A stretch of DNA of 46,880 bases, from sequence record MN158206.1, one strand, 5' to 3'. The notes under the pieces are model-generated. The model worked only from the letters and a program-made list of their open reading frames with translations. It had not been told where the DNA came from and did not search any database. The translations under genes were made by a program, and so were the position numbers. The DNA comes from Escherichia phage BEK2. Positions 576 through 46,569 of this stretch are shown piece after piece. Numbering within the stretch: the first letter of the stretch is position 1; each line of letters opens with the position of its first letter.

Positions 576-1088
576 ATGAATTGGCATGATTATTTTGAAT
601 ACAAAGATGGGAAGATTTACTGGAAAGATTACGATAGCGAGAGGCTTGGAAGGAGAAGGATACAGCGAAGATTCATAGGGAAAGAGGTTGGCGGCATTGA
701 TAAAAGCCTAGGGTATGTTAGGGTAAACATGCCTGGTAAAAAATATTGGGTTCATAGAATAATCTGGGAGATGCATAACGGAGTAATACCAGAAGGTATG
801 CAAATTGACCGTATAAATCATGTTAGAAATGTTAATAGGATAGAAAACCTTAGGTTAGTTACAATTCAGGAAAATAGAAAGAATCAGTCAATAAATTCGA
901 GGAATAAGACCGGGGTTACCGGAGTCTGCATAGTATCTAGGACTGGCAAATATGCAGCTCAAATAAAAAAGGATGGAGAGAATATTCACTTGGGATTCTT
1001 TGATAATATTCACGACGCGTCGATTGTCAGGGCGAGGGCTGAATTTATTCTTGGGTATCATAAAAACCACGGGAGGAAAGATGAGTGA
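576..1088 (+). CDS. HNH homing endonuclease with AP2-like DNA-binding domain
   Basis: HNH motif 'YWVHRIIWEMHNG...IDRINHVRNVNRIENLRLVTIQEN' followed by AP2-like 'TGVTGVCIVSRTGKYAAQIKKDG'; 3' end overlaps terL start by 8 nt. Confidence 0.8.
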   Translation: MNWHDYFEYKDGKIYWKDYDSERLGRRRIQRRFIGKEVGGIDKSLGYVRVNMPGKKYWVHRIIWEMHNGVIPEGMQIDRINHVRNVNRIENLRLVTIQENRKNQSINSRNKTGVTGVCIVSRTGKYAAQIKKDGENIHLGFFDNIHDASIVRARAEFILGYHKNHGRKDE

Positions 1089-9796: not shown

Positions 9797-9811
9797 CAAA
9801 AGGAAAAATAC

Positions 9812-10468
9812 ATGGCTCATTTATCAAACGGCACTCAGGTGTTCGTAGAGGGTTCTCGTGGCGAAGCTGTTGCGGTTACAGCAATCTCTAACGCAGCAAG
9901 CCCTGTTTTAACCGTAGCTGACAGCTCTGGTATTGAGGTTGGTAATCACCTCCTGTTTACCGCGTCTTCCTCTACACTGCTTGCTGACAAGCACGTTCGA
10001 GTTACCGCAGTTACTGGTACATCAATCACAGTTGAAGGTATCGATACTTCTAACACCACAAAATTCCCGGCGGGGTTGACTGGTGAGGTGGTTAAGATTA
10101 TTTCCTGGTTCGAGGTTCCGTGCGTTCAGGACGTTTCCACTGACGGCGGCGAGCAGCAATTCGTTAACTTCCAATGCTTGTCCGATGACCGTGAGCAGCA
10201 GATTCCGACTTATAAATCTGCCGTAACTAACACCTTTACCTTTGCTCATGAGTACACCAACCCGGTTTATCCGGTTCTGCGTAACTACGATGAGTCAGGA
10301 CAGGTTGTCGCAATTCATCTGTATGTTCCACGTGCACAGGAGATGCGTTTGCAGTCCGGCACTATCGCTTTCAACGACACGCCAACCATCGGTGTTAACG
10401 AAATCGAAACGGTGTCCATCTCGGTATCAATTCGTGGTCGACTGTCCTCTGTGGCAGCACCAGTTTAA
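9812..10468 (+). CDS. major tail protein
   Basis: 218 aa, strong RBS, followed by terminator, upstream of chaperone/tape-measure genes. Confidence 0.6.
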   Translation: MAHLSNGTQVFVEGSRGEAVAVTAISNAASPVLTVADSSGIEVGNHLLFTASSSTLLADKHVRVTAVTGTSITVEGIDTSNTTKFPAGLTGEVVKIISWFEVPCVQDVSTDGGEQQFVNFQCLSDDREQQIPTYKSAVTNTFTFAHEYTNPVYPVLRNYDESGQVVAIHLYVPRAQEMRLQSGTIAFNDTPTIGVNEIETVSISVSIRGRLSSVAAPV

Positions 10469-10475
10469 AGCACAA

Positions 10476-10497
10476 ACCCTCTTCGGAGGGTTTTTTA
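10476..10497 (+). terminator. intrinsic terminator
   Basis: ccctc-ttcg-gaggg + T6. Confidence 0.7.
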
Positions 10498-10502
10498 TTG
10501 CA

Positions 10503-10545
10503 TAGCACTTTTTGCTAAAGCACTTATCCAATCTTCCTGTATAGT
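10503..10545 (+). promoter_or_regulatory. composite early-type promoter (TAGCACTTTTTGCTA + -10 TATAGT)
   Basis: box 10503-10517, -10 10540-10545, leader 'ctcATCGAAACGAAA'. Confidence 0.6.
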
Positions 10546-10578
10546 TAACTCATCGAAACGAAATGAAGGAATTAAGAA

Positions 10579-10827
10579 ATGAATAACGTTAAAAACATTA
10601 TCAAACTTACTGCGGTTCTGGTTGCTTTTTATGCGGTGGTTCAGATTGTTAACCCAACGGGTGAGGCTGATGCAAATAGCAAGGCAAACAAATATACCGT
10701 TGAGTTTGCCAAAGCCGAGCGAGCATGCCAGGAACTTGTAGGTGGTAAGGTTGATCAAATCATGAAGTATGGTAGTGAGATTTGCAAGGATACCGCCGCT
10801 AAGATTGCAAAAGAAAACACTAAGTAA
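10579..10827 (+). CDS. small secreted/membrane-anchored protein (cargo gene inside tail operon)
   Basis: N-terminal hydrophobic segment 'LTAVLVAFYAVVQIV' then soluble domain with 2 Cys; own promoter. Confidence 0.6.
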   Translation: MNNVKNIIKLTAVLVAFYAVVQIVNPTGEADANSKANKYTVEFAKAERACQELVGGKVDQIMKYGSEICKDTAAKIAKENTK

Positions 10828-10865
10828 TAGAATACATACTCACAAACAATAAGAGGATTAACAAA

Positions 10866-11180
10866 ATGGCAAAGTTCAAACTTTCACTGGCGGCACTCCC
10901 GGACTTTAAGCTACCAGTAAAATTTAAGCTGGCTAACGACCAGGATGTAGAGGTTATTTTTACAGTCAAACACAAGAAAACATCTGAGCTTCAGGAATTG
11001 CTCAGCAAGGAAGATTTGAGCACCAAAGAACTTATTATGGCAATTACCTCTGATTGGGATTTGGAAGAGGAATACAACGAGGATAACGTTAATGAGTTCT
11101 CAGACCTGTTCCCAGCCTCAACCGTAGCGCTAACTACCGCTTATATGCAAGCACTGGCTGGTCAGCGAGTAAAAAACTAA
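10866..11180 (+). CDS. tail assembly chaperone (lambda G-like)
   Basis: 104 aa, acidic, immediately upstream of tape measure; ends at slippery site. Confidence 0.65.
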   Translation: MAKFKLSLAALPDFKLPVKFKLANDQDVEVIFTVKHKKTSELQELLSKEDLSTKELIMAITSDWDLEEEYNEDNVNEFSDLFPASTVALTTAYMQALAGQRVKN

Positions 11181-11500
11181 AACGAGCGGTGTACCTCCAG
11201 TACCAGTCAGAGCCAACTGATGCCGAACTGGAAGCTATTGGGATGCGCCGCTCTGATTACGAAGATGAAGAGCCTGAGGTTTTACACTTTGACGATAACA
11301 TGATGAAGGCGTGGGACATTTATTGTTCAATGGCTACACAATGGAGAGTCGGAGCTAACGGAGCAACTGGCCTAGATTACAACGTGCTAAATTTCCTCTT
11401 TAGAGTGTATAATGTTTCTGAAGAAGAATTGGTGCTCAGCGATTTACGCATCCTTGAAGCTAAGGCTCTTGAGATGATGGATAACCTGAGAAAAAAATAA
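10866..11500 (+). CDS. tail assembly chaperone frameshift fusion (lambda GT-like), -1 shift at A_AAA_AAC 11171-11177
   Basis: heptamer A AAA AAC directly before stop TAA; -1 frame is open to 11500 and is the frame of track ORF 11189..11500. Confidence 0.55.
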
Positions 11501-11519
11501 CCCGCTTCGGCGGGTTTTC
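11500..11519 (+). terminator. intrinsic terminator/attenuator
   Basis: aacccgc-ttcg-gcgggtttt. Confidence 0.5.
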
Positions 11520-11535
11520 TATTATGGAGGCTTAG

Positions 11536-14520
11536 ATGGCAACAAATGAATTAGCCGGAATCACGCTAGCCGTAGACGTCTCGCAGGTAGACAGGGGAAC
11601 GCAATCCCTACAGAAGTTCAGACAGGCCAACCAACAGGCTGCCTCTGGGATTAGTGAGTTCGTCAATGCTGAGCAGGTAGCAAAAACTCAGGCCAGAGAC
11701 ACGGCTCGCGCACTTGCTGAGCAGCAAGCATCACTTGCTAAGCTGCAAACGGCTATTGATCCAACTGCGGCAAAGTTCCGTAAACTCCAGGAGGCTGCTG
11801 TAGGTCTGGATAAGGCTTTCGCGGCTGGCGTAGTTCCTGATGAGGAGTTTTTCCGGTTAGGTGAGGCACTTGAAACGCAGAACGCAAAACTTGCCCGATC
11901 ACGTGCGGCGCTAACTGAGGAGGGAAGGGCGGCAGCACAGGCTGCAAAGGATAAGGCAAAAGCAAAGGCAGAGGCTGACAGATTTATCGCATCACTTGAG
12001 CGCCAGGCTCAAGCGGCAACATTGACGCGTGAGGAGTACTTAAAGTTACAGGCTGCTCAGCTTGGGGTAAGTTCTCAGGCAGCGCCTATTATTGACAGAA
12101 TCGCCGATGCATCACAGAAGGCAAACACCCAGTTAATTGCCCAGAGCAAGGCTTTTCAACGCTCTGGCTTAAGCGCAGGTCAATACAAGGCTGCAATCTC
12201 TCAATTGCCAGCGCAGATTACAGACATTGGCACATCACTTGCTGGCGGCATCCCGATCTGGCTTATTGCAATTCAGCAGGGTGGGCAAATTAAGGATGCA
12301 TTTGGTGGTATTGGCAACACCTTTAGATTCGCGCTCGCAGCCTTAAATCCATTCAATGTTGCTGTTGGTGTTTTGGGTGGGGCGCTTGTAGCTCTTGGTG
12401 TCGGTGCAGCTCAGGCTGAAAGTGAATTCAGGGCGTTAAACTCAGCTATTGCATTCTCCAACAACTCTACAATCGCATCAATCTCGCAGGTTAGAGAGTT
12501 GGTTAGCTCTGTTTCTGATGCAACAGGTGCCACCAGAGGGCTTGTGACTAGCATCGCAACAAGCCTTATTGAGCAAGGGAACCTTACGCTGACGCAGATT
12601 GACAAGATTACCAAATCAACCGCCAGATGGGCGCAGCTTACCGGAAAAGATGCAAAGGAAATTACTGGTTACTACAACCAGATTGCGAGCGACCCAATCC
12701 AGGGTTTGGTTGATTTGGATAAGCGCTTTAACTTCCTCACCAAGGGGCAGTTAACGACAATCGAAAACCTTAGGAAGACAAAGGGAGAGGTTGAGGCTGT
12801 TACCGCCGCAATTGACATTTTCAGTAAGTCCCAGGAAGCCAACCTTAACGACATAGCAGCGCAGTTAACTCCACTTGAGCTAGCCTGGAATGATTTCAAA
12901 AAGTACATCTCCGATATCTGGGATGCAATTAGTCGCAGAACAGTTGGGGCACTGAACCTGTTTGTTGACGTAATCGCCGGAACAATTGAGCAGATCAGGG
13001 TATTCATTAACCAGGGGGATGCCCTGATTGGTGAATTCGTAATTAGCGCAACTCAGGCATTGCAGAATATCCCCGGCCTTGATGGTGTCGGTGATGATGT
13101 AATCAAGAGTCAGCAGAAGATTATCGATGCCGCCAAGAAGCAAAACCTTGAGTTAGAAAAGTCTATCAAGGAGCGCGATGCCAGAATCAGGGAGGGAGAG
13201 CTTGGTTACGTTACTCGCAGAGAAAATCAGAATACCAATGAGCAGTCAGGCACGGATGAGGAGTTTGCAAAAAGGAAGAAGGCGCTTCAGGATGAACTTG
13301 ATGCGATCAAGAAAAACAGAGCCGAGGAGAAGGGTAGGGTTAAAGAGCAAAGGGATCTAACGATAGGTTATGAATCTGGCGTGCTGGCACTTCAGGCCCA
13401 ACTCAAGGCTCTTAAGGAAAACAGGGATGTCGGCGCAGTAATAAGCAATGAGAGCAATCAGTATCGTCAGGAGGTTGCTAAATTCCAGATTCTTGAGCAG
13501 AGGCAACTTGATGGCTCAATTACCAAAGAGCAAGCAAGGCTTCTCATTGAAAAGGATAAAGTTCTTGAGTTGGCTAGGCAGAAGGCTGAACTAGGTGACC
13601 AGATTGTTTTGCAGGAGCGAGCCAATAAGTTAGCTGAAGATAACCGCAAGAAGATTCTTCAGATTAACAATGAAGCAAATAACATTGATTTGGGTGCTGG
13701 CCTGTCTTCTCGTGAACAGCAGAGAGCTAAGGAGATTCAGGCTCTTCAGTCCAATCAGGTTAATGCTGGTGGTTCTGTTGATGATGTTGATTTTCAGCAA
13801 TTGCTGGAAGCAAGAAAGGAATACTACAAGCAGGAGGATAATCTTAGGTCAGACTGGCAAGCTGGCGTAACGTCAACCCTCGCTGACTTGACTGAGAAGT
13901 ACACTGATTACAACCAGATTGCTAAGGACTTGACAGTTGCGGCATTCGATGGAATTACAGACCAGATTACAAACCTTGTAACCACTGGTGAGACCAACTT
14001 CAGGGAGTTCACCGCAAACATCCTCAAAATGATTGCGAAGATTGCAACTCAGTTACTTTTGGTTAAGGCTATTGAATCTACAATCAAGAGCTTTGGTGGT
14101 GACACTGGTGCAGGTAGCGCTTTCGAGTCAATAAAGTCAGCAATTGGTTTCGCTGGCGGCGGCTACACTGGTGACGGCGGGAAGTATCAGCCAGCAGGTA
14201 CGGTGCATCGCGGGGAGTTTGTATTCACAAAAGAGGCAACTAGCCGAATTGGTGTGAAAAACCTTTACGCACTAATGAAGGGTTATGCAAACGGCGGAGC
14301 GGTTGGCGGTCCATCTGGTTATGCTAATGGCGGCTTGGTTTCTGGTGGTGCTGATGTTAATGTTAGTGGCATCACTGTTAACGTAAACTCGGGTGTAGGT
14401 AGCGATCCGGAGCAAGCTAAGGCACTGCAAAATGGCGTCAAGGCTATCGTAGCGGAAGAGATTTCTCAGTCCTTCCAGCAAGGCGGAAGAGCTTATCAGT
14501 ACCTTCGAGGATTCAACTAA
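11536..14520 (+). CDS. tail tape measure protein
   Basis: 994 aa, long coiled-coil Ala/Gln/Lys-rich regions, Gly-rich C-terminus. Confidence 0.85.
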   Translation: MATNELAGITLAVDVSQVDRGTQSLQKFRQANQQAASGISEFVNAEQVAKTQARDTARALAEQQASLAKLQTAIDPTAAKFRKLQEAAVGLDKAFAAGVVPDEEFFRLGEALETQNAKLARSRAALTEEGRAAAQAAKDKAKAKAEADRFIASLERQAQAATLTREEYLKLQAAQLGVSSQAAPIIDRIADASQKANTQLIAQSKAFQRSGLSAGQYKAAISQLPAQITDIGTSLAGGIPIWLIAIQQGGQIKDAFGGIGNTFRFALAALNPFNVAVGVLGGALVALGVGAAQAESEFRALNSAIAFSNNSTIASISQVRELVSSVSDATGATRGLVTSIATSLIEQGNLTLTQIDKITKSTARWAQLTGKDAKEITGYYNQIASDPIQGLVDLDKRFNFLTKGQLTTIENLRKTKGEVEAVTAAIDIFSKSQEANLNDIAAQLTPLELAWNDFKKYISDIWDAISRRTVGALNLFVDVIAGTIEQIRVFINQGDALIGEFVISATQALQNIPGLDGVGDDVIKSQQKIIDAAKKQNLELEKSIKERDARIREGELGYVTRRENQNTNEQSGTDEEFAKRKKALQDELDAIKKNRAEEKGRVKEQRDLTIGYESGVLALQAQLKALKENRDVGAVISNESNQYRQEVAKFQILEQRQLDGSITKEQARLLIEKDKVLELARQKAELGDQIVLQERANKLAEDNRKKILQINNEANNIDLGAGLSSREQQRAKEIQALQSNQVNAGGSVDDVDFQQLLEARKEYYKQEDNLRSDWQAGVTSTLADLTEKYTDYNQIAKDLTVAAFDGITDQITNLVTTGETNFREFTANILKMIAKIATQLLLVKAIESTIKSFGGDTGAGSAFESIKSAIGFAGGGYTGDGGKYQPAGTVHRGEFVFTKEATSRIGVKNLYALMKGYANGGAVGGPSGYANGGLVSGGADVNVSGITVNVNSGVGSDPEQAKALQNGVKAIVAEEISQSFQQGGRAYQYLRGFN

Positions 14521-15706: not shown

Positions 15707-16465
15707 ATGTTAACACCAAAAGTTAAGCTGGAAATCTTCCAGCACGCAAAGGAAGTGTACCCGCAAGAATGTTGCGGGGTTGTTACCCAGAAGGGTAGGG
15801 CACAGAAATACCACAGAATCAAGAACGCCAGCAAAGACCCCGAAAATGAGTTTGTGCTTGATTCAAATGAGTATTCTGATATCGCATTTGGCTTAGCTGA
15901 TAATGAGTCAATTGTTTACATAGTTCACTCACACACGGGAGATGGTGCGACAACAAGACCTAGCCCGGCTGACATTTGTAGCTGCAATGAATGCGAGATT
16001 CCTTATGTTATCGTCAGCATTCCGGAGGGAGATATGCGCATCCTTGATCCATCAGCTATGCCACTGATTGGTCGCCCGTGGGGTTTGGGTAGCTTTGACT
16101 GCTGGGAGCTGGTGATGGCATTCCACAAGAAATACGGCGTAAAACTGAATGACTACCGCGTTAATTACCCGTGGTGGGAGAAACGGTACAATGAAAATAT
16201 CTATGAAGACAACTGGATTAAGGAAGGATTTGAACTGGTAAAAACTTCAGATATTCCGATTGGCTCAATGATTATGATGCAGGTGCAAAGTGAGGTGGCA
16301 AACCACGCTGGAATCTACATTGGCAACAACAGATTCATTCATCACCTTTATGGTAAAATGAGTTCAGTTGATATCTACTCCGATTACTGGCGAGAGCGCA
16401 CTGTGCGAATCGTTCGCCATAAGGATTTACCAGAGGATGTAATTTATGACCCAGAAACTGATTGA
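15707..16465 (+). CDS. tail tip protein (lambda gpK-like; JAMM/MPN + NlpC/P60)
   Basis: JAMM motif 'HSHTGDGATTRPSPAD' and Cys/His C-terminal domain. Confidence 0.75.
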   Translation: MLTPKVKLEIFQHAKEVYPQECCGVVTQKGRAQKYHRIKNASKDPENEFVLDSNEYSDIAFGLADNESIVYIVHSHTGDGATTRPSPADICSCNECEIPYVIVSIPEGDMRILDPSAMPLIGRPWGLGSFDCWELVMAFHKKYGVKLNDYRVNYPWWEKRYNENIYEDNWIKEGFELVKTSDIPIGSMIMMQVQSEVANHAGIYIGNNRFIHHLYGKMSSVDIYSDYWRERTVRIVRHKDLPEDVIYDPETD

Positions 16466-17018
16466 TATTAAGTTAGGCCTATCTTTAGGGCGTAAGTTTG
16501 GCAAGATTCACAAAATGGCAGTGAGCAGCGTTCCTGAAGCAATGCGAGCGCTTTGCTCACAAATTCCTGCTTTCAAGGAGTTCATGAACAGTCATGTTGG
16601 TCAAAACACAAGGTACGCCGTGTTCGTTGATGGTAAAAATGTGAATGAGCATCGAATCTCTGATTTTGGCGCCGTTCAGGAGATACGAATCTTACCAATC
16701 CCGCAAGGTCGTAAGTCTGGCGGCTTGTTTCAGACTATTTTAGGCGCCGCTCTTATCACGGTTGGCATCTTTACCGGGCAGATTTATCTTGTTGGCGCTG
16801 GTGTTTCTCTGGCTGCTGGCGGTATTGCTCAATTACTCTCGCCGCAAGCGACTGGATTAAAGACCCAGAACAACCAAACAAGCAACCGCGCATCATACGC
16901 ATTCGGCTCCGCAGTAAACACGGTGGCAGCTGGCTATCCGGTTTGCCTTCCATATGGCTATCGAACGGTTGGCGGCTCTGTGTTTAGTGCAGGCAGTTAT
17001 TCCGAAGACATTGCTTAA
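16446..17018 (+). CDS. tail assembly protein (lambda gpI-like)
   Basis: 'AMRALCSQIPAFKEF' and 'GRKSGGLFQTILGAAL' parallel lambda I 'AIRALATQLPAFRQK' / 'GAKSGGVFQIVLGAA'. Confidence 0.7.
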   Translation: MTQKLIDIKLGLSLGRKFGKIHKMAVSSVPEAMRALCSQIPAFKEFMNSHVGQNTRYAVFVDGKNVNEHRISDFGAVQEIRILPIPQGRKSGGLFQTILGAALITVGIFTGQIYLVGAGVSLAAGGIAQLLSPQATGLKTQNNQTSNRASYAFGSAVNTVAAGYPVCLPYGYRTVGGSVFSAGSYSEDIA

Positions 17019-17098: not shown

Positions 17099-20000
17099 AT
17101 GGCTGAAGATATTAAGATTTATGGTGCTAAGGGTGGTAGTCAGAAGCCGCATCAACCGGTGGAGCAGGAAGATAACCTCATTTCACTAAACAAGGTTAAG
17201 GTGTTGCTTGCTGTCGCTGACGGAGAGGTTGATTCAAACTTCTCAATGAAGGATTTATACCTTGCTGACGTTCCGGTGCAAAACCAGGATGGTAGCTACA
17301 ACTACGAAGGTGTTCGCGCTGAGTTCCGTGCTGGAACGCAGTATCAGGACTATATCGCTGGCCTTGATGGTGCAAACTCAGAGATTCAGGCATCAAGGGA
17401 AATCAAAAACGATACCCCGTACATCATTGCGGTTAACAATACTCAGCTATCGGCGATTCGTGTAAAACTATATTGGCCTCGACTGGTTAAGCAAGAAAGC
17501 AATGGAGACCTGAACGGAACAACTTGTGAGTACGCAATTGACCTGTCTGTTAATGGTGGAGCGTATCAGGAATACACTCGAGGAGTTGCTAACGGGAAGA
17601 CAACTACAGGTTACGACCGCAGCATTCGTGTAAACCTTCCGGCTGAATTTGATAGCGCATTGGTTCGCATCAGAAAGATTACGACAGATTCGACGAGTAG
17701 CACATTGGTTAACGGGATGCAGATTACAACCTATCAGGAAGTAATTGACGCTAAATTCCGCTATCCGCTTACAGCTCTTGTTTACGTTGAGTTTGGCTCT
17801 GACCTTTTTCCTAACGGTATCCCGACAATCTCTATCAAGAAGCGATGGAAGTTGATTCAGGTTCCTACAAACTATGACCCTGAAAGCAGAACTTATAGTG
17901 GCACATGGAATGGTATATTTAAAATGGCATGGTCAAATAACCCTGCGTGGGTTCTTTATGACTTAGTGACAAACCGCCGATATGGTCTTGATCAGAGAGA
18001 GCTTGGTGTAGAGATTGATAAGTGGGGTCTGTACGAAGCTGCGCAATTCTGTGACCAAATGGTTCCAGATGGAAAAGGCGGCATGGAGCCGCGCTACCTG
18101 TGCGATATGGTTGTGCAGAATAAAGTTGAGGCTTACACGCTAATTCGTGATATCTGTTCGATCTTCCGTGGCCTGACTTTCTATGATGGCGAAAAGATTG
18201 GTATCGTAGTTGATAAGCCTCGTAATCCATCTTACATCTTCACGAATGATAACGTTGTAAACGGATTGTTCAGCCGCACCTTTGCCAGTGATAAAAGCCT
18301 TTACACCACGGCAAACGTTCAGTTTGATGATGTTGAGAACAACTATCAGCAGGATATTGAACCAGTATTCGAATTAGAGGCAACTCGTCGTTTTGGATTT
18401 AACCCTGTAGATTTAACTGCGATTGGATGTACTCGCAGAAGTGAAGCAAACAGACGTGGCAGATGGCTACTGAAAACCAACCTGAGAAGCGAAACCATCA
18501 GCTTCACTACCGGGTTGGAAGGTATGATTCCGATGATTGGTGAGGTTATTGCGGTCAATGACGCGGCATGGTCGAGCAACTATCAGTTAAACCTTTCCGG
18601 TCGCATTGAATCAGTCCAGGGATTGCAGGTTTTTACCCCGTTTAAAGTTGACGCAGCGCCTGGCGACAGGATTCTTCTGAACAAGCCTGACGGAAATCCA
18701 GAAGCAAGAACTATTGCAAGCATTTCGGAAGATGGTAGGACGATTAACCTAAACACGGCGTTCAGCTTTGTAGCTCAGCCTGATACTGTGTTCGCAATTG
18801 ATAAGGATAATCTGGCACTTCAGCAGTATGTTGTGACCGGTATTCAAAAAGCAGATACTGATGGTAAGGACTCATTCCAGTATACGATTACTGCGGTAGA
18901 GTACGACCCTAACAAGTATGACGAGATTGACTACGGCGTTAACATTGCTGACCGCCCGACTTCAATTGTGGAACCTGACAGATTGTCGCCACCAGAAAAC
19001 CTGACCGTTTCAAGCTATAGTAAGGTTGTTCAGGGATTATCAGTTGAGACGATGGTAATTGGTTGGGATAAGGCGCCATACGCTAAAACTTACAATGTTC
19101 AGTGGAGGAAAGAGAACGGCAACTGGATTAACGTACCCAGAACAGCTAGCACAGAGGTTGATATCGAAGGTATTTACGCAGGAATCTATGACGTCAGGGT
19201 TCGCAGCGTATCAGATACTGAAAACGTTTCTGCCTGGTCTGACATTGTAACTGTTTCGCTAACTGGCAAGATTGGTCGACCATCTGCGCCTACGGTTATC
19301 ACTGCGTCAACTGATGAAGTATTTGGTATCCGTGTTAAATGGGGATTCCCTGAAGGCTCTGGCGATACTGCTTACACTGAACTTCAGCAGGTTCCAGATA
19401 ATGGTGATGGTACTTACAATCCTGATAGCGCCAGTCTGTTAACTTTGGTCCCGTATCCTCAGTATGAATACTGGCACACACCGATTCAACCAGGCAAGGT
19501 GATTTGGTATCGCGCAAGATTGATTGACAGAATCGGCAATACCTCTGATTGGTCTTATTTCGCTAGAGGCATGAGTACTGACGACGCCAGCATCATCAAC
19601 GATTATATCAAGGTTGATATTGAGGGTTCGGAAGGATTCAAATACCTCGAGCAGAATGCGATTCAAAAGAATCAGGACATTCAGAATCAAGCTGAGGCAA
19701 TTATCGAGAACGCATTGGCTAATGATGGTGATGTTCGTCGCATGACAAAGGAGAACGGCAAACGTAAGGCTGAATATGTTCAGGCAGTTAATCTCATAGC
19801 CGATGAAACTCAGGCGCGTGTAGAGGCTCTCACGCAGCTTAAAGCGCAGATAGATGATGAAATTGTTGGTCAGATTACAACAATTGAAACAGCGCTAGCT
19901 ACAGAGACTGAAGCCAGGGCAACAGCTGACACGGCTTTAACCGCAAGGATTGGTGATAACGAGGCGGCAATAAACCAGAAGCTAGACGCGTTCTCTAATG

Positions 20001-20513: not shown

Positions 20514-21458
20514 TTAATACATGTCAGGAAGGTAAGGAAGTGGTGTTGATATTGTTACGTCAGGCCTATTCCCTATCTCGTATCTGACAATCCTTGAACC
20601 GGTTCCTGAGCGAACATAACCATTGCTCATCACGATTCCTTTGTTTCTCAACTCCTTATATGCTGGTATTGCCCTTGTGTTAAATCCACATCTAAGTATT
20701 GGGAAGTAAGAGTCACCAATGTACTGGTTGCTACCTGATAGGTTTATGAATCCAGAAACAACCAATGGCCTTGTGACGGTTGATAAAGTGCAGGCACCAT
20801 TTGAGTTAAATATGTTAAGTCCCGGACCAGGGGTTGGTGCTACCATCTGAAAAATAATCAAGTCCATAGTGACACTTCCTGGGGTATCACCAGTATCTTC
20901 AGTATTTATGTTTGTACATATTAACTGATTGCTCCCATTGTACTCAACTGACACACCGGAGTTGCTCCACTTTCCAAATGGAATTCCATAAATTGGCAGC
21001 GTGTAAGTGTCGGTGAAAGATATACTCTGAGCAAACTTGCACACCAACAACCTGTCAGTGGTGGTTATCGAAGTAAAATCAGTACTATTCGCAACATAAA
21101 TACCCTGGCCAGCCGATGCTCTTAGTACCTCAACAACAGTGCCAGAAAATTGCGTTATACGGTCAGAGTATCCATTCTCGTAACCAATTGATATTGTTCC
21201 GCTTGATTCTGTTGATGAAAATCCATTTATGTAGTAAATCTCAACTCCCCTATCAAGTTCGAATGAGTAGGCGCCATTGTTAGGGATAAGGAACCTTGAC
21301 GCTCCTTCATTGCCCTGAATTGAAAATGTCTTACTAAACCCGCCGCTAGAAACGTTGAAATTGCCAGCGAAATTCAATGCCCGCATCCCTGCGGTAATTG
21401 TCATTGGCTTCCTTCCATCATTGAGGTCTATATAAATACCTTGAGCCATTAATTCCAC
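20514..21458 (-). CDS. putative receptor-binding / tail-tip accessory protein
   Basis: 314 aa Gly/Ser/Thr/Asn-rich beta-type protein co-transcribed downstream of lipoprotein gene, adjacent and convergent to J; functional call is inference. Confidence 0.4.
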
Positions 21459-21679
21459 TCCTTAGAGCCATAATCACTAACAGATCCACCGGAGCCTTTA
21501 ATACCAGCGTAGCGAATATCAACCTCACCAGCAGGAACAACTACACCACCTTTCCACTTAGACACGCACACGCCGTTTGCTTGCGTTGCACACCAACCAT
21601 CCGGGCGAGGACCAGAAGAACAACCAACTGCCATGATTACTGCTGCTGCGATGATTGCTGATTTGATGAAGTTATTCAT
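21449..21679 (-). CDS. lipoprotein, Cor/Llp-like superinfection-exclusion candidate
   Basis: signal peptide + lipobox '[10 protein letters not shown]|SS'; ATG 21679 with AAGGAA RBS; small mature domain with 3 Cys. Confidence 0.65.
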
Positions 21680-35782: not shown

Positions 35783-35825
35783 TAGCACTTTTTGCCTAAA
35801 GCATGCCGTAGAAATGCGGCATAAT
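35783..35825 (+). promoter_or_regulatory. composite promoter variant (TAGCACTTTTTGCCTA + -10 CATAAT)
   Basis: box 35783-35798, -10 35820-35825, spacer inverted repeat atgccg/cggcat. Confidence 0.5.
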
Positions 35826-46492: not shown

Positions 46493-46569
46493 GCTCGAGT
46501 GGCGAAAGTGGATATCGCAAGAGACTTCTAATCTCTAGATTGCTGGTTCGAATCCAGCCTCGGGCGCCA
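46493..46569 (+). tRNA. tRNA-Arg (anticodon UCU)
   Basis: hand-folded cloverleaf: acceptor GCTCGAG/CTCGGGC (one G-U), D-stem GCGA/TCGC with GG in loop, anticodon stem AGAGA/TCTCT, loop CT-TCT-AA, T-arm GCTGG-TTCGAAT-CCAGC, discriminator G, encoded CCA. Confidence 0.8.

What the first reader, a model, noticed from the sequence alone, without database searches (positions are those of the whole stretch)
10503..10827. Small secreted or membrane-anchored cargo protein embedded in the tail operon
An 82-aa protein with an N-terminal hydrophobic segment and a two-Cys soluble domain sits between the major tail protein terminator and the tail chaperone gene, under its own early-type promoter. A periplasm-facing small protein expressed early would fit a superinfection-exclusion or receptor-masking role.
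Basis: partly seen in the sequence, partly recalled or inferred. Interest (0 to 1): 0.55.

Follow-up and report, generated by a model that had tools for sequence, protein, structure and literature searches.

The report
Exported small-protein cassette in tail operon
A 326-bp add-on cassette in the tail genes of a virulent T1-like coliphage encodes a small protein that is probably exported to the periplasm; the gene is real, dispensable and swappable, but its job (perhaps a second layer of exclusion of competing phages) is still unknown.

Summary
The window is Escherichia phage BEK3 (Drexlerviridae, Braunvirinae). The 82-aa ORF at 10579-10827 (+) is a real gene. Its dN/dS is about 0.10, like the major tail protein, and it occurs in 81 phage records. 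It has a predicted Sec-type signal peptide (residues 1-32, Ala at -1 in 35/36 sequences). The predicted 50-aa mature part is basic and helical, with two invariant Cys (C50, C69).

The gene sits in a 326-bp cassette (10502-10827) between the tail-tube terminator and the tail chaperone gene. Relative SU57 has the same flanks but no cassette, and T1, TLS, AHP42 and Sushi also have an empty slot. Rtp carries an unrelated lipoprotein behind the same leader, and Rao1/TR2/TR3 add a 46-aa two-TM peptide.

The "own promoter" is one of about 22 copies of the Drexlerviridae repeat aaATAGCACnnnTTGnTAAAA plus a -10 box. This repeat precedes genes of every class, so "early-type" is not established.

Receptor masking is unlikely. 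BEK3 already encodes a homologue (83% identical) of Rtp45, the solved LptDE-blocking lipoprotein. The 82-aa gene also occurs with different receptor-binding alleles.

The family is an ORFan with no relatives in Pfam, NCBIfam, PADLOC or PDB, among 1.84 billion representative proteins, or in E. coli genomes. Best guess: a non-structural periplasmic accessory protein, possibly post-adsorption superinfection exclusion. Interest is moderate.

The parts
10474..10499 (+). Intrinsic terminator after the major tail protein gene (stem AAACCCTC/GAGGGTTT, TTCG loop, T-run). This is the left flank of the cassette, not part of it.
   Evidence: 8-bp stem, 4 GC pairs; conserved in Rtp, ACG-M12, Rao1 and SU57.
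10502..10827 (+). Whole accessory cassette (326 bp): repeat element, -10 box, leader and ORF with its stop codon. SU57 has 11 unrelated nucleotides in its place.
   Evidence: Span comparison of 113 records (917 nt with the cassette against 602 nt in SU57); junction alignment.
10503..10520 (+). Copy of the Drexlerviridae direct repeat (TAGCACTTTTTGCTAAAG; palindromic core TAGCA-N5-TGCTA), 'T' subgroup.
   Evidence: The same consensus, aaATAGCACnnnTTGnTAAAA, is described for TLS, T1, Rtp and Rogue1 about 76 nt upstream of start codons (PMC11447400).
10540..10545 (+). -10-like hexamer TATAGT, exactly 22 nt after TTGCTA. There is no canonical -35 at 16-19 nt.
   Evidence: 22-nt spacing in 18 of 22 copies; not called as a standard sigma-70 promoter.
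10551..10570 (+). Conserved leader CATCGAAACGAAA (10551-10563) and Shine-Dalgarno AAGGA (10566-10570). Predicted to be unstructured.
   Evidence: the leader motif recurs after most repeat copies; MFE -0.6 kcal/mol, z = +1.4.
10579..10674 (+). Codons 1-32, a predicted Sec signal peptide: n-region MNNVKNIIK (+2), h-region L10-V24, helix breaker NPTG, and A30-D31-A32 followed by the predicted cleavage point before N33.
   Evidence: Ala at -1 in 35/36, Asn at +1 in 36/36, small residue at -3 in 34/36. The crude Hessa sum is +3.9, like the two phage lipoprotein signal peptides and unlike true anchors.
10675..10827 (+). Codons 33-82 plus the stop codon: the predicted mature 50-aa (5.5 kDa, pI 9.0) helical periplasmic domain with invariant C50 and C69.
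   Evidence: AF2 on the ectodomain gives pLDDT 82.7, all helix.
10805..10833 (+). Sigma-70-like site TTGCAA-17-TAGAAT, overlapping the 3' end of the ORF and facing the chaperone gene. Its -10 aligns with TATAAT in the empty SU57 slot, so it is probably the native chaperone promoter.
   Evidence: 9/12 match; about as many such sites are expected by chance; the annotation of CEB_EC3a places a promoter at the same spot.

Best explanation
The feature is a dispensable, horizontally exchangeable accessory cassette in the tail operon of a virulent Braunvirinae phage.

Expression. A copy of the family-wide repeat-plus-(-10) promoter-like element is inferred to start transcription about 30 nt upstream of an 82-aa ORF. 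There is no terminator after the ORF, so the transcript should continue into the chaperone and tape-measure genes.

Product. The protein is predicted to be exported by Sec and cleaved after Ala32. This would release a 50-residue basic, helical peptide into the periplasm, where its two invariant cysteines would be oxidised. It is not a virion or assembly component.

Function. The function I consider most likely is a second, receptor-independent layer of superinfection exclusion or envelope conditioning in the periplasm. An example would be interference with the tail-tip or tape-measure channel of an incoming phage. This would work like T4 Spackle or HK97 gp15, not like Cor, Llp or Rtp45.

Basis. 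Shown here: the gene is real and under purifying selection, the cassette boundaries, its dispensability, the alternative cargos, and the lack of linkage to receptor type. Inferred: export and cleavage, the disulfide, promoter activity and timing, and the exclusion function.
For: Real gene: dN/dS about 0.10, 81 phage records and 39 protein clusters, PHROG 22925.

Export:
- n/h/c architecture with a near-invariant Ala32-Asn33.
- The h-region's crude insertion energy is +3.9, comparable with the two phage lipoprotein signal peptides (+3.0, +6.8) and unlike HK97 gp15 (-1.5) or the Rao1 two-TM peptide (-2.0).
- The n-region is replaced in ACG-M12 while the h-region is kept.

Non-structural and dispensable:
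- The slot is empty in SU57, which has 90.5%-identical flanks.
- The slot is also empty in T1, AHP42, TLS and Sushi.

Envelope theme of the slot:
- Rtp, AugustePiccard, MM01 and RobRod40 carry the unrelated lipoprotein rtp34 (LLAGC lipobox) behind the same leader. Their flanking tail-tube and chaperone proteins are 91% and 93% identical to BEK3's.
- Rao1 carries an extra 46-aa two-TM ORF in the slot. TR2 and TR3 have the same enlarged slot span, 1065 nt.

Not receptor-linked, and the Rtp45 homologue is present elsewhere in the genome.

Found only in virulent phages: none in 5,426 E. coli genomes or in plasmids.

The ectodomain diverges faster between clades (dN 0.54-0.56, omega about 0.3) than the chaperone (0.21) or tail tube (0.11), as host- or competitor-facing proteins often do.

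Precedent: HK97 gp15, a small envelope protein encoded by a moron between the tail chaperone and tape-measure genes, blocks genome entry (PMC3594210; locus).
Against: - There is no experimental or homology evidence for any function. The family is an ORFan.
- Signal-peptide cleavage is inferred by rule, not by a trained predictor. Two of 36 variants have Asp or Pro at -3.
- The N-terminal 28 residues are more conserved than the ectodomain (dN 0.105 against 0.56 between clades). That is unusual for a disposable signal peptide and would fit a functional membrane anchor.
- AF2 gives one long helix. In it the two Cys are 19 residues apart, so an intramolecular disulfide is not supported. The full-length model is poor (pLDDT 62.6).
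- Timing is unknown. If the gene is expressed only late, exclusion would have little value to a virulent phage.
- SU57 is viable without the cassette, so any benefit is conditional.
Confidence: 0.35

Rival explanations
1. Receptor-masking superinfection exclusion. The exported protein binds the phage's outer-membrane receptor from the periplasmic side and prevents adsorption, as Cor, Llp and Rtp45 do.
For: Predicted periplasmic location. Small phage proteins that act on receptors from the periplasm are well known (PMC12685063).
Against: - BEK3 already encodes the cognate masking lipoprotein next to its receptor-binding protein. It is 83% identical to Rtp45 (PDB 9RPS chain D, E = 6e-40) and belongs to PF24052.
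- The 82-aa gene is carried with receptor-binding alleles that are 95% identical (FP, the vB_EcoS series) and only about 40% identical (DTL, ACG-M12, T145P1, PCEc3) to BEK3's.
- The LptD-type allele also occurs without the gene, in Rtp and HK578.
- All characterised maskers are lipoproteins; this protein has no lipobox.
Confidence: 0.07
2. Lysis-timing regulator. A periplasmic or signal-anchored antiholin-like or spanin/endolysin-modulating peptide that works like T4 RI.
For: Size, an N-terminal weakly hydrophobic segment, and a helical periplasmic domain with two Cys; these resemble the general layout of T4 RI (from my own knowledge, not tested here). The same repeat-type promoter heads the lysis cassette at 35783.
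Against: - The gene is 25 kb away from the holin, endolysin and spanin genes at 36.1-37.2 kb.
- It is absent from SU57, T1 and TLS, which lyse normally.
- There is no similarity to any lysis PHROG or Pfam family.
- As annotated for T1, the holin of these phages is short and has a single TM domain, which leaves little periplasmic domain to bind (inference).
Confidence: 0.12
3. Uncleaved type II inner-membrane protein (N-in, C-out) whose conserved transmembrane helix is the functional part. It would act on an inner-membrane host factor or on the incoming DNA channel, in the manner of Imm or HK97 gp15.
For: - The N-terminal 28 residues are far more conserved than the ectodomain between clades (dN 0.105 against 0.56, with dS 0.83, so this is not merely recent identity).
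- The positive-inside rule is satisfied (+2 at the N terminus).
- Residue -3 is Asp or Pro in 2 of 36 variants.
- AF2 predicts helix 2-24.
Against: - The hydrophobic core is only 15 residues and contains an internal Gln.
- The crude insertion energy is unfavourable (+3.9), unlike real anchors measured the same way.
- The NPTG helix breaker followed by Ala-x-Ala is the classical signal-peptidase I context.
- The n-region is replaced in ACG-M12.
Confidence: 0.2
4. Tail assembly or virion component, for example a minor tail or chaperone-associated protein encoded where it is needed.
For: Its position inside the tail gene block, and inferred co-transcription with the chaperone and tape-measure genes because no terminator lies between them.
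Against: - An export signal is incompatible with cytoplasmic tail assembly.
- The gene is missing from SU57, T1, TLS, AHP42 and Sushi, which share the same tail module.
- It is replaced by an unrelated lipoprotein in Rtp, although the flanking tail proteins are 91-93% identical.
Confidence: 0.03

Closest known systems
HK97 gp15 moron (superinfection exclusion; YebO-like inner-membrane protein)
   Same: A small (62 aa) envelope protein. Its gene forms an add-on transcription unit inside the tail operon beside the tail chaperone and tape-measure genes, and it is dispensable for virion formation (PMC3594210; locus).
   Different: - No sequence similarity (BLASTP finds nothing at E <= 100) and no YebO Pfam hit.
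- Opposite predicted topology: gp15 has positive charges after a strongly hydrophobic helix, so its C-terminal part would lie in the cytoplasm, and it has no Cys.
- gp15 has its own terminator and is expressed from a prophage. BEK3 is virulent, and its cassette has no terminator.
- The insertion point differs: here before the chaperone gene, in HK97 after it.
T4 Spackle (Sp), periplasmic superinfection exclusion protein
   Same: From my own knowledge, not tested here: a small, signal-peptide-exported, helical periplasmic protein with a cysteine pair, encoded by a virulent phage. It acts after adsorption on the incoming tail tip.
   Different: - No homology was detected in the general searches (Pfam, PHROGs, PDB). 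No direct pairwise comparison was run.
- Spackle's target, the gp5 tail lysozyme, has no recognised counterpart in this tail. The precomputed Pfam hits on the tape measures of close relatives list only TMP_2 and Tape_meas_lam_C.
Rtp45, Cor and Llp receptor-masking lipoproteins
   Same: Phage-encoded small envelope proteins of the same phage family that act from the periplasm. Rtp45 is solved in complex with LptDE (PMC12685063).
   Different: - Those are lipoproteins encoded next to the receptor-binding protein. BEK3 has its own copy at 21449-21679 (-).
- The 82-aa protein has no lipobox, sits elsewhere and is not linked to receptor type.
rtp34 lipoprotein of phage Rtp (alternative cargo of the same slot)
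   Same: Same slot, same terminator, same repeat element and leader up to the start codon. It is also an envelope-targeted ORFan restricted to Braunvirinae.
   Different: An unrelated sequence: 128 aa with a lipobox (LLAGC). Its function is also unknown.

Membership tests
Moron (independent add-on transcription unit in a phage operon, sensu Juhala/Hendrix) | Present or absent between otherwise collinear relatives, with sharp junctions | tested here: met
   SU57 has 90.5%-identical flanks but lacks 10502-10827. The slot is also empty in T1, AHP42, TLS and Sushi.
Moron (independent add-on transcription unit in a phage operon, sensu Juhala/Hendrix) | Own promoter | tested here: inconclusive
   The cassette carries a copy of the repeat plus a -10 element that is absent from the empty slots. 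Promoter activity of this element has never been shown (PMC11447400), and a standard sigma-70 scan does not call it.
Moron (independent add-on transcription unit in a phage operon, sensu Juhala/Hendrix) | Own terminator | tested here: not met
   No terminator-like site lies between 10827 and 10866.
Moron (independent add-on transcription unit in a phage operon, sensu Juhala/Hendrix) | Atypical base composition, or expression from a repressed prophage | tested here: not met
   GC is 0.414 against a genome value of 0.444 +/- 0.037. The phage is virulent, and no prophage copy exists in 5,426 E. coli genomes.
Sec (SPase I) secreted protein | Positively charged n-region, 10-15-residue h-region, polar c-region with small residues at -3 and -1 | tested here: met
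   Net +2 n-region, h-region L10-V24, then NPTG and A30-x-A32. Ala at -1 in 35/36, small residue at -3 in 34/36. This is a rule-based check only.
Sec (SPase I) secreted protein | Demonstrated cleavage and periplasmic location | not testable with these tools
   Needs PhoA fusions, cell fractionation or N-terminal mass spectrometry.
Bacterial lipoprotein (Cor/Llp/Rtp45-type superinfection exclusion) | Lipobox [LVI][ASTG][GA]C at the end of the signal peptide | tested here: not met
   There is no Cys before residue 50 and no hit to PF24052 or the Cor PHROG.
Bacterial lipoprotein (Cor/Llp/Rtp45-type superinfection exclusion) | Encoded next to, and co-varying with, the receptor-binding protein allele | tested here: not met
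   The gene lies about 10 kb from the RBP locus and occurs with RBP alleles that are 95% and about 40% identical to BEK3's.
HK97 gp15 / YebO family | Sequence similarity to gp15 or YebO | tested here: not met
   BLASTP finds no alignment at E <= 100; Pfam finds no family at E <= 1.
Superinfection exclusion protein (functional class) | Expression in the host lowers infection by the same or related phages | not testable with these tools
   No experimental data were found in the papers searched.
Virion structural protein | Conserved with the tail module and lacking an export signal | tested here: not met
   Absent from SU57, T1, TLS, AHP42 and Sushi, and it carries an export signal.

The most novel reading that the evidence does not exclude
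The gap between the tail-tube and chaperone genes of Braunvirinae could be a hot-swappable 'envelope-effector slot'. Its interchangeable cargos are a soluble periplasmic two-Cys helix, a lipoprotein and a two-TM micropeptide, all driven by the same repeat-type promoter.

On this reading the 82-aa product would be the first soluble, non-lipoprotein periplasmic inhibitor of siphophage genome delivery. It would act on the ejected tape-measure or tail-tip channel rather than on the receptor, giving virulent T1-like phages a second, receptor-independent exclusion layer.
Probability: 0.2. Interest if true: 0.65.

Novelty: new member of a known kind. Interest (0 to 1): 0.4.

Why it matters
Rtp-like (Braunvirinae) phages are notorious laboratory and fermentation contaminants and are candidates for therapy. 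Their receptor recognition and receptor-masking exclusion were solved only recently.

A dispensable cassette encodes a predicted exported protein in 81 of the roughly 90 Braunvirinae records in GenBank. Unrelated envelope proteins sit in the same slot in sister phages. This points to an uncharacterised interaction with the cell envelope that these phages keep under selection.

If the protein blocks genome delivery after adsorption, it would give a simple handle on the poorly understood periplasmic step of siphophage DNA entry. It would also matter for the design of phage cocktails, because related phages might exclude one another.

The natural empty-slot phage (SU57) and the BASEL phages JeanPiccard, JulesPiccard and AugustePiccard make the question directly testable.

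Tried and rejected
Homology searches that found nothing:
- Pfam, NCBIfam and PADLOC returned nothing for the 82-aa protein.
- PHROGs returned only its own unknown-function family, plus a weak hit (E = 0.055) to another unknown family.
- A profile search of 1.84 billion representative proteins found only the family itself and one spurious hydrophobic match.
- A PDB profile search at E <= 10 found nothing.
- Rfam found nothing credible in the leader.

Structure:
- The full-length AF2 model was poor (pLDDT 62.6).
- The ectodomain-only model is a single helix. Foldseek against BFVD gave only meaningless hits (E >= 3.7), so I ran no further fold searches.

Other leads:
- The scan of IMG/VR viral contigs yielded only 4 loci.
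- Searching for homologues of rtp34, to get a functional clue for the slot, found only another ORFan family, and its domain searches gave only lipobox-level hits.
- Papers on Rtp-like phages (OzMSK, ACG-M12, DTL, Rogue1, KanT1, BASEL, Rtp-LptDE) give no proteomic, transcriptomic or functional data on this gene. The original Rtp genome paper is not in the held library. The one RNA-seq paper retrieved concerned a T5-like phage.

Ideas considered and rejected:
- Chance ORF: rejected because of dN/dS and conservation.
- Recent foreign acquisition: GC content is not anomalous.
- Canonical sigma-70 promoter: the spacer is 22 nt.
- Intramolecular disulfide in a helical hairpin: in a hairpin turning at G55-G56 the two Cys would not be in register.
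Full report
**Identity of the window.** The region 9800-11550 is 100% identical to Escherichia phage BEK3 (MN158207; Drexlerviridae, Braunvirinae; host E. coli K514). It is 88-92% identical to about 80 other Rtp-like phages. These are virulent T1-like siphophages. The gene order around the finding is tail terminator, major tail protein (9812-10468, PF08813), the ORF in question, tail assembly chaperone (10866-11180, PF08748), a DUF1799 chaperone part (11189-11500) and tape measure (11536-14520).

**Check of the observation.**
- ORF 10579-10827 (+) encodes 82 aa: MNNVKNIIKLTAVLVAFYAVVQIVNPTGEADANSKANKYTVEFAKAERACQELVGGKVDQIMKYGSEICKDTAAKIAKENTK.
- All records annotate it as a hypothetical protein.
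- An 8-bp GC-rich hairpin with a T-run (10474-10493) follows the tail-tube gene.
- The ORF has an AAGGA Shine-Dalgarno 8 nt before the ATG and an unstructured leader.
- It is a real gene. I compared 20 nucleotide sequences. Pairwise dN/dS within the close clade is about 0.10 for both the N-terminal and C-terminal parts, at dS 0.36-0.72. That equals the neighbouring tail-tube gene (0.10).
- It matches PHROG 22925 (unknown function) end to end.
- The two cysteines (C50, C69) are invariant in all homologues, including a clade only 55-60% identical.

**The promoter claim.**
- The finding's start coordinate is the first base of TAGCACTTTTTGCTAAAG. This 18-mer recurs 13 times in the window with up to 3 mismatches, against 0.11 expected. 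Its palindromic core, TAGCA-N5-TGCTA, recurs 21 times against 1.9 expected.
- Oriented copies number about 22. Nearly all are followed after exactly 22 nt by a TATAGT/TATAAT-like hexamer, then TAC..CATCGAAACGAAA, and a start codon about 76 nt from the repeat.
- This is the 21-nt direct repeat aaATAGCACnnnTTGnTAAAA reported for phage TLS (21 copies, about 76 nt upstream of start codons). It was also noted in T1, Rtp and Rogue1. Its function is unknown; the authors suggested stoperators, enhancer sites or UP elements (PMC11447400).
- The TTGCTA lies 22 nt from the -10 hexamer, too far for a sigma-70 -35 box, and the standard scan does not call the site.
- The palindrome is centred near -42. That is the geometry of a class II activator site. 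This is my inference and is untested.
- In BEK3 the element precedes head genes (2650), this cassette (10503), the operon of Rtp45-like lipoprotein and receptor-binding protein (21757, minus strand), recombination and replication genes (24946, 30946, 33442), the lysis cassette (35783) and nine units of small ORFs at 37.5-46 kb.
- So the cassette does carry a promoter-like element of the phage's general type. It is the only such copy inside the 18-kb structural block apart from the one at the block's start. It cannot be called early-specific, and no expression data exist.
- No terminator separates the ORF from the chaperone gene.
- A sigma-70-like site (TTGCAA-17-TAGAAT, 10805-10833) overlaps the ORF's end. 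Its -10 aligns with the TATAAT of the empty SU57 slot, so it is probably the native chaperone promoter.

**Cassette anatomy from comparative genomics.** I joined 260 nt of the tail-tube 3' end to 260 nt of the chaperone 5' end and searched all phage records. The span in each hit measures the slot:

| Span (nt) | Phages | Slot content |
|---|---|---|
| 917 | BEK3 and most relatives | 82-aa gene |
| 1034-1035 | Rtp, AugustePiccard | rtp34 lipoprotein |
| 1065 | TR2, TR3 (same layout as Rao1) | extra 46-aa ORF plus the 82-aa gene |
| 602 | SU57 | empty |

- SU57's flanks are 90.5% identical to BEK3's, but only 82 nt separate its two genes.
- The junction alignment places the BEK3 cassette at 10502-10827 (326 bp: repeat, -10 box, leader and ORF including its stop). 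SU57 has 11 unrelated nucleotides there.
- T1, AHP42 (Rogunavirinae), TLS (Tempevirinae) and Sushi (Webervirus) also go from terminator to chaperone gene in 71-113 nt with no gene between.
- In Rtp, AugustePiccard, MM01 and RobRod40 the same terminator, repeat and leader run, base for base, up to the start codon of an unrelated gene, rtp34. It encodes a 128-aa lipoprotein (MKAIIAIMATLLLAGC...). The flanking tail-tube and chaperone proteins are 91% and 93% identical to BEK3's.
- In Rao1 a 46-aa, two-TM peptide gene (phrog_16572, unknown function) precedes the 82-aa gene in the slot.
- The slot therefore holds interchangeable, dispensable genes, all of which encode envelope-targeted products.

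**The protein.**
- The N terminus has a +2 n-region, a 15-residue hydrophobic core (L10-V24, with an internal Gln), the helix breaker NPTG, and Ala30-Asp-Ala32 followed by an invariant Asn33.
- Across 36 cluster representatives, position -1 is Ala in 35. Position +1 is Asn in all 36. Position -3 is A/T/S/V in 34, with one Asp and one Pro.
- A crude, unweighted Hessa-scale sum for the best 19-residue window is +3.9 kcal/mol. This is close to the signal peptides of the two phage lipoproteins measured the same way (+3.0 and +6.8). It is unlike the true anchors of HK97 gp15 (-1.5) and the Rao1 peptide (-2.0).
- I therefore favour a cleaved Sec signal peptide and a soluble 50-residue mature product (5.5 kDa, pI 9.0).
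- One caveat is that residues 1-28 are much more conserved between clades than the ectodomain (dN 0.105 against 0.56). Their dS is still 0.83, so this is not merely recent identity. That leaves an uncleaved type II anchor as a live alternative.
- AF2 gives a poor full-length model (pLDDT 62.6). It gives a more confident single long helix for the ectodomain (pLDDT 82.7).
- In that helix the Cys are 19 residues apart. If they form a disulfide, it is more likely intermolecular, or the GG at 55-56 forms a turn that AF2 misses. This is inference.
- Variability hot spots are residues 40 and 52.

**Homology.**
- There is none beyond the family itself. Pfam, NCBIfam, PADLOC and PDB gave nothing, and 1.84 billion representative proteins gave only the family itself plus one spurious hydrophobic match. 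Foldseek against BFVD was meaningless.
- The family is confined to Braunvirinae-like phage genomes and phage-sized metagenomic contigs.
- It has no copy in 5,426 complete E. coli genomes or in PLSDB plasmids.
- rtp34 is likewise an ORFan.

**What it is probably not.**
- Not structural. It has an export signal, and it is absent from viable relatives that share the same tail module.
- Probably not the receptor mask.
  - BEK3 encodes, at 21449-21679 (-) next to its receptor-binding protein (20514-21449, 79% identical to Rtp44), a lipoprotein 83% identical to Rtp45. The cryo-EM structure of Rtp45 with LptDE shows how it blocks RBP binding (PMC12685063).
  - The 82-aa gene rides with RBP alleles that are 95% identical (FP, the vB_EcoS series) and about 40% identical (DTL, ACG-M12, T145P1, PCEc3). 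The LptD-type allele also occurs without the gene, in Rtp and HK578.
  - JeanPiccard, a carrier of the gene, depends on LptD (PMC8594841).
- Not HK97 gp15 or YebO. There is no similarity and the predicted topology is opposite.

**Most likely function.** The supported statement is this: a non-structural accessory protein, predicted to be Sec-exported to the periplasm and encoded on a dispensable, exchangeable cassette with its own repeat-type promoter-like element. I hold this at about 0.8.
- The specific mechanism I consider most likely is receptor-independent, post-adsorption superinfection exclusion or envelope conditioning (about 0.3-0.35).
- It rests on three things. One is the known roles of small exported proteins of virulent coliphages (Sp, Imm, RI, Llp, Cor; my own knowledge). 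Another is the HK97 gp15 precedent for a small envelope protein encoded beside the chaperone and tape-measure genes that blocks genome entry (PMC3594210). The third is the fast divergence of the ectodomain between clades.
- Rivals are a membrane-anchored variant of the same idea (0.2), lysis-timing control (0.12), receptor masking (0.07) and a structural role (0.03).

**Novelty and interest.** This is a new, uncharacterised member of a known kind: small envelope-targeted accessory proteins in moron-like cassettes. It meets only part of the formal moron definition. The presence/absence junctions are clear, the promoter is likely, there is no terminator, the composition is normal, and there is no prophage context. 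The comparative picture makes it a tidy, directly testable case: one slot, three unrelated envelope cargos, a natural empty site and a shared repeat-type leader. Nothing in the evidence yet points to a new principle. Interest 0.4.

Noticed in passing
window, about 22 sites: 505+, 2650+, 10503+, 21757-, 22503-, 23295-, 24946+, 29141+, 30207-, 30481-, 30946+, 33442+, 35783+, 37542-, 39972-, 41343-, 41714-, 43320+, 44151+, 44322+, 44853+, 45557+: A genome-wide promoter-like module: aaaTAGCAC-nnnT-TGCTAaa, then exactly 22 nt, then TATAGT/TATAAT, then TAC..CATCGAAACGAAA, with a start codon about 76 nt from the repeat. The repeat itself is published for TLS, T1, Rtp and Rogue1 with unknown function (PMC11447400). 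The fixed 22-nt spacing puts the palindrome centre near -42, the geometry of a class II activator site. I did not see the spacing, the -10 box or the conserved leader described in that paper.
   Followed up: partly
window 39972-, 37542-, 44151+, 44322+ (22-nt spacers): In several copies the 22-nt spacer between the repeat and the -10 box is itself a GC hairpin with a T-run, for example aagcccttcggggctttt and accctcttcggagggtttt. An intrinsic terminator is thus nested inside the promoter-like module. Other copies (2650+, 41343-, 45557+) have shorter hairpins there.
   Followed up: no
L007 (Rtp) 16380-16766; also AugustePiccard, MM01, RobRod40: An alternative cargo in the same slot. rtp34 is a 128-aa ORFan lipoprotein (lipobox LLAGC). 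It sits behind the identical terminator, repeat and leader. Its function is unknown and it has no homologues outside these phages.
   Followed up: partly
L004 (Rao1) about 1341-1481; same span in TR2 and TR3: An extra unannotated 46-aa ORF, MILIGMLTAFFYYATGLTFWVSLGAAIGAYFVSALLALIVIALRNR, with two hydrophobic helices (phrog_16572, unknown function). It lies between the leader and the 82-aa gene.
   Followed up: partly
window 20514-21679 (-): The receptor-binding protein is 79% identical to Rtp44 and 90% to HK578's. Next to it is a 76-aa lipoprotein 83% identical to Rtp45 (PDB 9RPS chain D; PF24052). BEK3 is therefore predicted to use LptD and to have a canonical receptor-masking exclusion protein. 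Both genes are annotated as hypothetical in the record.
   Followed up: yes
L008 (T1) about 18833-18849, minus strand: T1's otherwise empty gap between the tail-tube and chaperone genes contains a copy of the same repeat in inverted orientation (TAGCACTTTTTGTTAA on the minus strand), about 25 nt before the chaperone start codon. The slots in AHP42, TLS and Sushi have no copy.
   Followed up: no
L021 (Logan SRR10499612 contig) 221-706; window 576-1088: HNH homing-endonuclease genes are inserted at different module junctions in relatives. One metagenomic phage has one between the tail terminator and tail-tube genes. BEK3 has one between terS and terL, preceded by a repeat copy at 505. Rtp has another between two minor tail genes (rtp40).
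   Followed up: no
phage records PP134917 (Pseudomonas phage PsgS01F), MG065688 (Campylobacter phage A110b); protein P0036 (Nitratidesulfovibrio liaohensis): Records labelled with non-Escherichia hosts carry this E. coli Braunvirinae region at about 89% nucleotide identity. The two phage records are full-length genomes of 44-45 kb, and the P0036 sequence sits on a 46.7-kb contig. Contamination or host mislabelling seems likely.
   Followed up: no
window 10866-11500: The chaperone pair (104 aa, then a 103-aa DUF1799 ORF starting 8 nt later) is annotated in OzMSK, TLS and Sushi as a programmed-frameshift G/GT-type fusion. In BEK3 both are plain hypothetical proteins.
   Followed up: no
window 46493-46566 (+): A single tRNA gene (Rfam RF00005, 63 bits) in the early-region end of the genome. 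Relatives are reported to carry one Arg tRNA.
   Followed up: no
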